DNA from: Escherichia coli
GTDB lineage: Bacteria; Pseudomonadota; Gammaproteobacteria; Enterobacterales; Enterobacteriaceae
Strand: one strand, 5' to 3'
DNA: 670 nt
Assembly: GCF_003334385.1 (NCBI RefSeq)
Contig: NZ_QOWN01000153.1
Part shown: positions 1 through 670 of the stretch, piece after piece
Numbering within the stretch: the first letter of the stretch is position 1
How the letters are laid out: each line of letters begins with the position of its first letter
The notes under the pieces: model-generated
The model's database searches: none
Told to the model about the DNA's origin: nothing
What the model saw: only the letters and a program-made list of their open reading frames with translations
Program-made: the position numbers and the translations under genes

Positions 1-670
1 GAGGGGCCGTTCTACTTCCTCTTCACCGACAAGGATGGCGAAAAATACGGTCGCGCAAACAAACTTTCTGGTCTGGATAAGGCGCTGTCTGCTGGGGCTA
101 CTGAAATCACGAAAGAAGAATATTTCGCCCGCAAAAACGGTACATACTCAGGTTCACAACAAAATACTGGTGCATCTGACACGACCGCACAACCAGGGTC
201 AGTAAAAGTTACCGCTGACGAAGTAAACAAAATTATGCAGGCAGCCAATATCAGCCAGCCTGACGCCGATGAACTGCTTGCAGTATCACGTGGTGAATTT
301 GTTGAAGGGATTAGCGACCCGAATGATCCGAAATGGGTTAAGGGGAACCAGACCCGCGATTCTGTGAACCAGAACCAGCAAGAAACGGAACAGAACGACC
401 AGAAAGCGGAACAAAACAGCCCAAATGCGTTACAAAACGAGCCAGAAACGAAACAGCCTGAATCAGTGGCGCAACAGGAAGTGGAAAAAGTCTGCACCGC
501 CTGCGGTCAGACCGGCGGCGGCAACTGCCCTGATTGTGGCGCGGTAATGGGCGACGCAACATACCAGGAAACATTCGATGAAGAGTATCAGCCTGAAGTT
601 CAGGAAGATGATCCGGAGGAAATGGAAGGCGCTGAACATCCACACAAGGAGAACACTGGCGGCAATCAGC
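1..670 (+). CDS. recE: Internal fragment (both ends outside the window) of a RecE-like protein (exonuclease VIII of Rac-type prophages), covering the poorly characterised region upstream of the C-terminal nuclease domain
   Basis: Seen in sequence: frame +1 is open for all 223 complete codons (nt 1-669) with no stop. Codon choice is enterobacterial (CTG, CCG, GCG, AAA, GAA, CAG, AAC preferred) and the product is hydrophilic and protein-like, whereas the minus-strand ORFs translate to Cys/Phe/Ser/Trp-rich strings. Recalled, not searched: the segment [28 protein letters not shown]...[16 protein letters not shown]...[30 protein letters not shown]...[12 protein letters not shown] closely matches my memory of the E. 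coli K-12 RecE middle region, with scattered substitutions. Confidence that frame +1 is coding is about 0.85; confidence in the recE assignment is about 0.6. Confidence 0.7.
361..489 (+). other. Gln/Asn/Glu-rich low-complexity linker within the CDS ([43 protein letters not shown]), probably intrinsically disordered
   Basis: Direct translation of frame +1. The stretch is dominated by Q, N, E, K, P, S, T and has no aromatic or large hydrophobic residues. The DNA is built from reiterated CAG/AAC/GAA/CAA codons. Confidence 0.6.
493..537 (+). other. Putative C4 zinc-ribbon/zinc-knuckle motif CxxC-x7-CxxC ([16 protein letters not shown]) within the CDS
   Basis: Four Cys codons at nt 493-495, 502-504, 526-528 and 535-537 (TGC, TGC, TGC, TGT) in frame +1. 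They are the only Cys in the 223 translated residues and sit in a Gly-rich hairpin-like context (CxxCG...GGG...CPDCG). The spacing is typical of a small Zn-binding ribbon. Metal binding cannot be shown from sequence. Confidence 0.55.
541..669 (+). other. Strongly acidic segment following the zinc ribbon ([43 protein letters not shown])
   Basis: Direct translation: 14 Asp/Glu against 1 Lys (plus 2 His) in 43 residues, interspersed with Tyr/Phe. Compositional call only. Confidence 0.55.

What the first reader, a model, noticed from the sequence alone, without database searches (positions are those of the whole stretch)
1..670. Real coding frame is + strand frame 1 and is absent from the ORF track
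The track reports only three minus-strand ORFs, but the + strand frame 1 has no stop across all 223 codons. It is invisible to a start-to-stop ORF finder because both ends lie outside the window. Its translation is compositionally normal and uses enterobacterial codon preferences. The minus-strand ORFs translate to Cys/Phe/Ser/Trp-rich sequences, as expected when an E/K/Q-rich gene is read antisense (GAA to TTC, AAA to TTT, CAG to CTG). Annotating from the track alone would mis-strand the locus.
Basis: seen in the sequence. Interest (0 to 1): 0.45.

Follow-up and report, generated by a model that had tools for sequence, protein, structure and literature searches.

The report
Interior of a prophage exonuclease gene

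Summary
The finding is confirmed and ordinary. Frame +1 has no stop in any of its 223 codons (about 3e-5 expected by chance). The only ORFs of at least 60 aa that a start-to-stop finder lists are three minus-strand ones. The window is 100% identical to many E. coli chromosomes. It lies in frame inside an annotated 2,472-nt plus-strand CDS (WP_000048437.1, "exonuclease", 823 aa), as residues 387-609. The gene sits in a lambdoid prophage next to ompW, in the order dicB-DUF1482-exo-xis-int.

Frame +1 stays open in 8 of 8 diverged copies, and every other frame has stops in all of them. The 161-aa antisense ORF is broken in 6 of 8 copies, and no antisense ORF matches a protein family. The +1 translation matches PHROG exonuclease families at E down to 1e-156.

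Two side claims are weak. Codon usage does not separate the frames. The composition is not "normal": it is acidic and Q/N/E-rich, like a linker.

Beyond the finding, the protein is a mosaic. The window encodes three conserved islands, one a Cys4 zinc-ribbon-like motif, partly shared with the function-unknown centre of Rac RecE. The C-terminal nuclease is a DEDDh 3'-5' exonuclease, not RecE's PD-(D/E)XK domain.

The parts
1..670 (+). Internal segment of a protein-coding gene, frame +1. It covers codons 387-609 (plus one base) of an 823-codon prophage exonuclease CDS. Start and stop lie 1,158 nt upstream and 644 nt downstream of the window.
   Evidence: The window is 100% identical to L001:8001-8670, inside annotated CDS 6843-9314 (+), WP_000048437.1. 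The frame is open in 8 of 8 diverged homologues.
1..165 (+). Conserved island 1 (protein residues 387-441): GPFYF..GRANKL..L..G..EIs.EEy.ARK.GT. Predicted as a small beta-beta-alpha-beta-alpha unit. It always travels with this protein's type of N-terminus and is absent from Rac RecE.
   Evidence: Alignments A1 and A2. AF2 pLDDT is 91-96 for window residues 1-50. Co-occurrence with the window-type N-terminus is shown. No significant fold match.
166..261 (+). Variable S/T/Q-rich linker followed by the [19 protein letters not shown] stretch. A DNA-level mosaic junction lies near nt 201.
   Evidence: Several phage and E. coli copies match only nt 201-670. Length-variable in A2. pLDDT 49-58.
262..345 (+). 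Conserved island 2 (protein residues about 474-501): [21 protein letters not shown]. This is the most widely conserved motif of the family. It is shared with Rac RecE (residues about 455-481); function unknown.
   Evidence: A 'RecE family' gene matches at the DNA level only over nt 295-339 (H70).
346..492 (+). Q/N/E-rich, length-variable, low-complexity linker.
   Evidence: Indel-rich in A2. Mean hydropathy down to -2.2. pLDDT 47-49.
493..585 (+). Conserved island 3 (protein residues 551-581): CxxC-x8-CxxC followed by [17 protein letters not shown] Cys4 zinc-ribbon-like motif, also present in Rac RecE (residues 518-548).
   Evidence: All four Cys are kept in 84 of 87 cluster representatives that span it, while the residues between them vary.. 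Zinc binding is inferred, not tested. The Pfam Zn_ribbon_3 match in RecE is only E = 4.8.
586..670 (+). Strongly acidic tail ([17 protein letters not shown]...) leading towards the C-terminal DEDDh nuclease domain, which begins about 100 nt beyond the window's end.
   Evidence: Net charge is -12 over window residues 181-210. The Pfam PF16473 domain lies at protein residues 642-813.
12..497 (-). 161-aa antisense 'shadow' ORF, not a gene. Its wobble position coincides with the wobble position of frame +1.
   Evidence: It has an internal stop in 6 of 8 homologues and loses its start codon in one more. No family match. Register.
338..643 (-). 101-aa antisense ORF, not a gene.
   Evidence: No PHROG match, and only a chance-level NCBIfam match at E = 0.12. 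Its start codon is lost in 2 homologues. It lies wholly inside the conserved + strand CDS.
463..645 (-). 60-aa codon-aligned antisense ORF, not a gene.
   Evidence: No family match. Its Phe and Leu come from antisense GAA and CAG. Its stop is specific to this allele: the plus-strand Ser codon here is Pro in the other copies.

Best explanation
The window is the middle of a plus-strand protein-coding gene read in frame +1. It covers residues 387-609 of an 823-residue exonuclease of a lambda-like prophage of E. coli. In the identical copy examined the prophage is integrated beside ompW, and the gene sits just upstream of xis and int in the early-left operon. A start-to-stop ORF finder cannot report the gene because both ends lie outside the window. 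The three minus-strand ORFs are shadow ORFs that arise because the sense strand is rich in GAN, AAN and CAR codons.

Shown here: the frame, the gene boundaries, the conservation and the domain content.

Inferred: the protein works as a 3'-5' DEDDh exonuclease through its C-terminal domain (residues 642-813, outside the window). The window-encoded part is a non-catalytic region made of a small folded unit, a conserved [16 protein letters not shown] motif and a Cys4 zinc-ribbon-like motif, joined by flexible acidic Q/N/E-rich linkers. The same central region sits in front of unrelated nucleases in related proteins. I therefore infer that it acts as a docking or targeting module for a partner or substrate, not as part of catalysis.
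For: Open frame: 223 of 223 codons, P about 2.7e-5.
Identity and annotation: 100% identity to E. coli chromosomes under a + strand 'exonuclease' CDS; in frame, residues 387-609 of 823; GAGG-N9-ATG start.
Homologues: frame +1 is open in 8 of 8 copies at 83-96% identity, and every other frame has stops in all of them. Variable columns by codon position are 51/44/99 (chi-square p = 1e-6). No indels occur in the window among the full-length copies.
Distant relatives: at 32-60% identity they keep three amino-acid islands in this frame.
Family matches: PHROG 2082 covers 1-823/823, and the window segment scores E = 1.8e-156.
Nuclease domain: Pfam PF16473 at 642-813, E = 3.4e-67, covering 2-177 of 177 model positions. 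The DEDDh motifs DLE (646), NGANFD (741) and HNALDDA (796) are present.
Nothing else in the window: no Rfam family, promoter, terminator or notable repeat.
Modular reuse of the central region with both nuclease types.
Against: Nothing speaks against the frame assignment.
Codon usage gives no support: the host codon model slightly prefers an antisense frame.
The position-3 excess on its own cannot separate frame +1 from the 161-aa antisense frame, which shares its wobble position. The stops in homologues and the family matches do separate them.
Constraint in the window is modest: nonsynonymous codon differences outnumber synonymous ones in every pairwise comparison except one tie, e.g. 53 to 42, as expected for linker-rich sequence.
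The functional reading of the window-encoded part is inference only. There is no Pfam domain, no solved homologue and no fold match, and most of the model is low-confidence.
Confidence: 0.97

Rival explanations
1. One of the minus-strand ORFs (12-497, 338-643 or 463-645) is the real gene, or an additional overlapping antisense gene.
For: They are the only ORFs a start-to-stop finder lists. The 101-aa and 60-aa ORFs have no internal stop in the homologues examined. The host codon model scores minus frame 2 slightly above +1.
Against: The 161-aa ORF has an internal stop in 6 of 8 homologues. No PHROG match and only a chance-level NCBIfam match. None is annotated in RefSeq or in the phage records fetched. 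None extends beyond 165 codons in context. Their skewed compositions are exactly what antisense reading of E/D/N/K/Q codons predicts. No promoter-like site on either strand.
Confidence: 0.01
2. The gene is RecE proper (exodeoxyribonuclease VIII, a 5'-3' dsDNA exonuclease that works with RecT), as several phage records label it.
For: Several phage records annotate it 'exodeoxyribonuclease VIII'. NCBIfam NF007259 matches the central region at E = 3e-81. BLASTP against K-12 RecE gives 39% identity over 370 columns, and much higher over residues 473-625.
Against: The score of 273.7 bits is far below the curated cut-off of 1269. There is no PF12684 PD-(D/E)XK domain and no PF06630 N-terminal domain, both of which K-12 RecE has. 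The C-terminus is instead a DEDDh 3'-5' exonuclease. No recT follows the gene in any of the four loci examined, unlike Rac. RefSeq names it 'exonuclease' or '3'-5' exonuclease'.
Confidence: 0.02
3. Frame +1 is the historical coding frame, but this copy is a decaying, non-functional remnant of a cryptic prophage.
For: The gene is multi-copy (median 2, up to 9 places per genome). Frameshifted and truncated copies exist among database proteins. Amino-acid constraint in the window is modest.
Against: This copy is an intact 823-codon ORF with a Shine-Dalgarno sequence and complete catalytic motifs. Its length matches PHROG 2082 exactly. Full-length copies are carried by isolated phages such as mEp460_ev081, Tritos and HannyBb. 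The neighbouring prophage genes are intact.
Confidence: 0.05

Closest known systems
Lambdoid-prophage 'exonuclease' family (PHROG 2082; RefSeq WP_000048437.1; CP-933P / PPompW 'putative exonuclease')
   Same: End-to-end match, 1-823 of 823. Same gene order dicB-DUF1482/ydfD-exo-xis-int in E. coli prophages and in isolated phages. The DNA is 100% identical to many chromosomes.
   Different: Nothing. The window is a member of this family. I found no experimental study of this full-length protein in the searchable literature.
Rac prophage RecE (exodeoxyribonuclease VIII, NCBIfam NF007259; Pfam PF06630 + PF12684)
   Same: Central region: RecE residues about 453-591 align with residues 473-625 here, including SRGEFV(D/E)[13 protein letters not shown], the CxxC-x8-CxxC motif and the acidic [11 protein letters not shown] tail. 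Same position in the prophage, just upstream of xis-int. A 2023 review describes the RecE region N-terminal to the nuclease as being of unknown function (PMC11611040).
   Different: Different N-terminus (no PF06630). Island 1 (window nt 1-165) is absent from RecE. The nuclease is DEDDh 3'-5' (PF16473) instead of PD-(D/E)XK 5'-3' (PF12684). There is no adjacent recT.
T4 DexA and bacterial DexA-like exonucleases (PDB 8KEL; HREX / EcD, PMC12153337)
   Same: The C-terminal domain, outside the window, is the closest sequence match to a solved structure: E = 9.8e-8 over DexA residues 4-162. Both are DEDDh 3'-5' exonucleases.
   Different: DexA and EcD are small stand-alone proteins, whereas this one carries about 640 extra N-terminal residues. 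In my alignment DexA D90, which is Ala in the defence variant EcD, aligns with Asp718 here, and S87 aligns with Pro715 (my reading of the alignment). The 5hmC-recognition residues lie beyond the aligned stretch. No PADLOC defence model matches.

Membership tests
Protein-coding sequence in frame +1 | Uninterrupted reading frame, far longer than chance, that continues to a start and a stop in the flanks | tested here: met
   223 of 223 codons are open, P about 2.7e-5. The frame spans 826 codons stop-to-stop in L001, with an ATG plus GAGG.
Protein-coding sequence in frame +1 | Frame preserved, with a substitution pattern typical of coding sequence, in diverged homologues | tested here: met
   Open in 8 of 8 copies. 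Variable sites by codon position are 51/44/99. No indels in the window among the full-length copies. Amino-acid islands are conserved down to 32-60% identity.
Protein-coding sequence in frame +1 | Host-like codon usage that distinguishes this frame from the others | tested here: not met
   +1 scores 0.146 bits/codon against 0.259 for minus frame 2. The synonymous bias is 0.085 bits/codon. This is uninformative rather than contrary, since prophage genes are often weakly adapted.
PHROG 2082 / RefSeq prophage 'exonuclease' | Full-length profile match and identical annotated protein | tested here: met
   E = 0, 1871.8 bits, 1-823 of 823. Annotated as WP_000048437.1.
DEDDh 3'-5' exonuclease, Rv2179c-like (Pfam PF16473) | Domain match over the whole model | tested here: met
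   E = 3.4e-67, model positions 2-177 of 177, at residues 642-813. The domain lies outside the window.
DEDDh 3'-5' exonuclease, Rv2179c-like (Pfam PF16473) | Catalytic Exo I (DxE), Exo II (D) and Exo III (H-x4-D) motifs | tested here: met
   DLETMG at 646, NGANFD at 741 and HNALDDA at 796. Read from the sequence; activity was not tested.
RecE / exodeoxyribonuclease VIII (NCBIfam NF007259 equivalog) | Whole-protein score at or above the curated cut-off (1269 bits) | tested here: not met
   273.7 bits. Only profile positions 271-602 of 877 are matched.
RecE / exodeoxyribonuclease VIII (NCBIfam NF007259 equivalog) | C-terminal PD-(D/E)XK nuclease domain (PF12684) and N-terminal PF06630 domain | tested here: not met
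   Both are absent here and present in K-12 RecE. BLASTP gives no alignment to RecE residues 600-866.
RecE / exodeoxyribonuclease VIII (NCBIfam NF007259 equivalog) | Adjacent annealase gene recT | tested here: not met
   The gene is followed directly by xis and int in L001, L002, L004 and L011. In Rac, recE is followed by recT.
RecE / exodeoxyribonuclease VIII (NCBIfam NF007259 equivalog) | Central region ([16 protein letters not shown], Cys4 motif, acidic tail) | tested here: met
   The window segment alone scores E = 1.6e-64 against profile positions 437-585.
HREX defence exonuclease (EcD-type DexA homologue, PMC12153337) | Loss of the tetramerisation residue (DexA D90 replaced, Ala in EcD) | tested here: not met
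   DexA D90 aligns with Asp718. The alignment has moderate reliability (accuracy 0.69).
HREX defence exonuclease (EcD-type DexA homologue, PMC12153337) | Conserved Trp and acidic residue (DexA D169) for 5hmC recognition; protection against T4 | not testable with these tools
   The alignment ends at DexA residue 162. The phenotype needs an experiment. PADLOC gives no match.
Zinc ribbon | Two CxxC knuckles that bind zinc | tested here: inconclusive
   CxxC-x8-CxxC is conserved in 84 of 87 representatives. There is no significant Pfam match, AF2 confidence is only about 64, and metal binding was not tested.

The most novel reading that the evidence does not exclude
The window-encoded central region (the [16 protein letters not shown] motif, the Cys4 zinc-ribbon-like motif and the acidic tail) may be a self-contained, uncharacterised docking or targeting module. 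Lambdoid prophages would combine it freely with nucleases of opposite polarity (DEDDh 3'-5' or RecE-type PD-(D/E)XK 5'-3') and with two alternative N-termini. If so, it would explain the long-unexplained N-terminal part of RecE, which enhances linear-linear recombination. It would also mean the DEDDh-bearing proteins are targeted to the same partner or substrate, possibly for a role other than recombination, such as defence.
Probability: 0.2. Interest if true: 0.45.

Novelty: already known. Interest (0 to 1): 0.08.

Why it matters
The practical lesson is methodological. A start-to-stop ORF list on a short window cannot see a gene that spans the whole window, and it can leave only antisense shadow ORFs, so strand calls from such a track are unsafe. 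Biologically the gene is already annotated in thousands of genomes, so the frame call adds nothing new.

Two side points have modest value. Many phage records call this gene 'exodeoxyribonuclease VIII' although it lacks RecE's nuclease domain and has no RecT partner. And the window covers the only part shared between these proteins and RecE, a conserved region whose function is still unknown.

Tried and rejected
- Codon-usage discrimination of the six frames against neighbouring host genes was uninformative.
- Rfam at a permissive threshold gave one chance-level archaeal snoRNA match (16.3 bits against a gathering score of 35), which I rejected.
- The promoter/terminator scan and the repeat search found nothing of note.
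- PADLOC defence models gave no match.
- AF2 of the full 823-aa protein with a 5-sequence alignment failed (mean pLDDT 35.3), so I did not use it.
- AF2 of the window segment with 33 sequences was confident only for residues 1-50.
- Foldseek of that model against the PDB and BFVD gave no match at E <= 0.001.
- A profile of the window region against PDB sequences found nothing.
- Literature searches found no study of this full-length protein. One search was swamped by 'receptor' word-start matches, and 'Rv2179c + prophage + exonuclease' returned nothing.
- The large word-indexed homologue search returned almost only partial E. coli fragments and added little beyond confirming the frame.
- I considered the HREX/EcD defence reading for the C-terminal domain and did not adopt it, because the D90 equivalent is retained.

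Full report
**1. The observation**

The window's frame +1 translates without a stop across all 223 codons. The other five frames carry 4, 17, 8, 6 and 5 stops. With the window's base composition the chance that a codon is a stop is 0.046, so 223 open codons have probability about 2.7e-5. Frame 1 was open in none of 20,000 mononucleotide shuffles, and any of the six frames was open in 0.11%.

The mechanical ORF lister omits ORFs that run off either end. At 60 aa or more it shows exactly three ORFs, all on the minus strand: 12-497 (161 aa), 338-643 (101 aa) and 463-645 (60 aa).

**2. What the window is**

The window is 100% identical to many complete E. coli chromosomes. Related sequence occurs in 4,735 of 5,426 genomes, at a median of 2 and up to 9 places per genome. 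It is 91-95% identical to isolated or predicted lambdoid phages, including mEp460_ev081, the PPompW prophages, Tritos and HannyBb. In every listed record with annotation, the feature under the match is an exonuclease gene.

In strain LC-1302-2020 the window is L001:8001-8670, inside the + strand CDS 6843-9314 (WP_000048437.1, 'exonuclease'). The offset is 1158 = 3 x 386. Direct translation places the window's frame +1 product at residues 387-609 of the 823-residue protein.

The + frame is open for 826 codons stop-to-stop, and the ATG is preceded by GAGG. No minus-strand frame over the window exceeds 165 codons in this context. The gene order is dicB - DUF1482 - exonuclease - xis - int - ompW, which is the left end of a lambdoid prophage. 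The same order is seen in phage mEp460_ev081, in a diverged E. coli copy and in phage vB_EcoS-689R5.

**3. Independent evidence for the frame**

I compared eight copies at 83-96% identity. Frame +1 is open in all eight, and every other frame has stops in all eight. There are no indels in the window among the full-length copies. Variable columns fall 51/44/99 on codon positions 1/2/3 (chi-square p about 1e-6).

One caveat applies. The 161-aa antisense ORF is in the register whose wobble position coincides with that of frame +1, so the position-3 excess alone cannot separate these two frames. Other evidence does:
- The 161-aa ORF is interrupted by a stop in 6 of 8 homologues and loses its start in one more.
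- The three minus ORFs match nothing in PHROGs, and only a chance-level hit (E = 0.12) in NCBIfam.
- The +1 translation matches PHROG 20376 and 2082 ('exonuclease') at E = 1.8e-156 and 1.5e-132, and the RecE model NF007259 at 1.6e-64.
- An exhaustive HMMER scan of 1.84 billion cluster representatives found 82 relatives. The distant ones (32-60% identity) conserve three amino-acid islands in this frame.

**4.

The antisense-composition argument is right in kind:
- The 161-aa ORF is S 19.3 / F 11.8 / C 6.8 / W 3.1 %.
- The literal mapping GAA->TTC and CAG->CTG applies to the codon-aligned 60-aa ORF, where 9 of 10 Phe lie over GAA and 5 of 8 Leu over CAG.
- In the 161-aa ORF the register is shifted. 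Ser lies over E/D codons, Phe over N/K codons, and Cys/Trp over Gln codons.
- The 101-aa ORF is instead R/P/L-rich.

Two statements are weak. First, codon usage does not pick out frame +1. Against a model built from eight neighbouring host genes, +1 scores 0.146 bits/codon and minus frame 2 scores 0.259, and synonymous bias is only 0.085 bits/codon. Second, the product is not 'compositionally normal'. It is acidic (net charge -25), rich in E, Q, N, D and G, and poor in L, I and R.

**5. What the gene encodes and how the window fits**

Pfam finds one domain in the 823-aa protein: PF16473 (Rv2179c-like 3'-5' exoribonuclease, DEDDh superfamily). It lies at residues 642-813 with E = 3.4e-67 and full model coverage. 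The Exo I, II and III motifs are intact. The closest solved structure is T4 DexA (8KEL, E about 1e-7). The catalytic domain lies just beyond the window's 3' end.

K-12 Rac RecE has a different architecture: PF06630 at the N-terminus and the PF12684 PD-(D/E)XK nuclease at the C-terminus. The two proteins align only in the middle, residues 262-625 here against 278-591 of RecE. Similarity is very high from residue 473 on.

The NCBIfam RecE equivalog scores 273.7 bits against a cut-off of 1269, and no recT follows the gene. So the label 'exodeoxyribonuclease VIII' in several phage records is not justified. RefSeq's 'exonuclease' or '3'-5' exonuclease' is appropriate.

**6. Anatomy of the window-encoded segment**

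- *Island 1* (nt 1-165). Sequence GPFYF..GRANKL..EIs.EEy.ARK.GT. It is predicted with pLDDT 91-96 as a small beta-beta-alpha-beta-alpha unit.
- *Variable linker.* A DNA-level mosaic junction lies near nt 201, because several copies match only nt 201-670.
- *Island 2* (nt about 262-345). Sequence [19 protein letters not shown], the most widely conserved motif.
- *Q/N/E-rich linker.* It is length-variable.
- *Island 3* (nt 493-585). Sequence CxxC-x8-CxxC followed by [13 protein letters not shown]. The four Cys are kept in 84 of 87 representatives, while the residues between them vary.
- *Acidic tail.*

Local module mapping of the 25 long relatives shows three things:
- Island 1 always accompanies this protein's type of N-terminus.
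- Islands 2 and 3 also occur behind the RecE-type N-terminus.
- The C-terminal nuclease is either DEDDh or PD-(D/E)XK, and all four combinations of N-terminus and nuclease exist.

[quoted passage not shown] I infer, without a test, that the shared central region is a non-catalytic docking or targeting module. No solved homologue, Pfam domain or fold match supports a more specific claim.

**7. The HREX lead**

The DexA structure paper reports that an E. coli DexA homologue (EcD) degrades 5hmC DNA and protects against T4 (PMC12153337). In my alignment the residue that distinguishes EcD (DexA D90 replaced by Ala) is Asp718 here. The 5hmC-recognition residues lie beyond the aligned stretch. PADLOC has no match. 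I therefore do not assign the protein to that system. It remains an untested possibility, and it concerns a domain outside the window.

**8. Nothing else is hidden in the window**

There is no credible Rfam family, no sigma-70-like promoter or intrinsic terminator, and no meaningful repeat.

**9. Verdict**

The feature is an ordinary internal segment of a known, annotated prophage gene. It is not novel and its interest is low.

The modest points of interest are the mosaic architecture, the conserved Cys4-containing central module shared with RecE whose function is unknown, and the frequent mis-naming of this gene as RecE.

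Noticed in passing
window 262-670; L001:6843-9314; L003:4790-7387 (Rac recE); L011:2173-4614: The central region encoded by the window is the only part shared between proteins with two alternative N-termini and two unrelated C-terminal nucleases (DEDDh 3'-5' or PD-(D/E)XK 5'-3'). All four combinations exist among 25 long relatives. One example is P0122, with a RecE N-terminus 100% identical to K-12's fused to the DEDDh domain.
   Followed up: partly
window 493-585: A CxxC-x8-CxxC motif followed by [13 protein letters not shown]. 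The four Cys are conserved in 84 of 87 cluster representatives and in Rac RecE (residues 518-548). It looks like a zinc ribbon in a region of RecE described as having unknown function. No significant Pfam match, and metal binding is untested.
   Followed up: partly
window 1-165: A small, confidently predicted (pLDDT 91-96) beta-beta-alpha-beta-alpha unit, GPFYF..GRANKL..EIs.EEy.ARK. It is conserved down to about 45% identity in relatives and absent from RecE. No significant Foldseek match in the PDB or BFVD.
   Followed up: partly
window about 201, about 295 and about 434: DNA-level similarity to different groups of prophage copies begins abruptly at these positions: 201-670 in some phages, 295-651 or 295-339 in others, and 434-670 in K-12-type recE at 84%. 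This is typical of lambdoid mosaic recombination junctions inside a gene.
   Followed up: no
phage records under hits H13, H17-H20; L011: Several phage records name this gene 'exodeoxyribonuclease VIII', although it scores 274 bits against a 1269-bit RecE cut-off, lacks the RecE nuclease domain and has no adjacent recT. This is probably annotation transferred from the shared central region.
   Followed up: yes
database proteins P0001-P0120; trimmed hits: Most database relatives are 'partial' proteins on 0.4-1.2 kb contigs, and some contain stretches translated in frame +2 (e.g. ...[18 protein letters not shown]...). The gene is multi-copy (up to 9 places per genome), so it seems to break short-read assemblies, and some copies are frameshifted pseudogenes.
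   Followed up: no
and summaries: One match lies in a record labelled as an Actinobacillus pleuropneumoniae phage, and 20 places lie on E. coli plasmids. I did not examine these; they may reflect contamination, phage-plasmids or real transfer.
   Followed up: no
window 463-465: The stop codon that ends the 60-aa antisense ORF exists only in this allele. The plus-strand codon is TCA (Ser, PESV) here and CCA (Pro, PEPV) in the other seven copies, where the antisense frame reads through with Trp.
   Followed up: yes
L001:6843-9314, protein residues 711-721 (outside the window): In the alignment to T4 DexA, the tetramerisation residues S87 and D90 correspond to Pro715 and Asp718. The Asp that is lost in the anti-T4 defence variant EcD is retained here.
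   Followed up: partly
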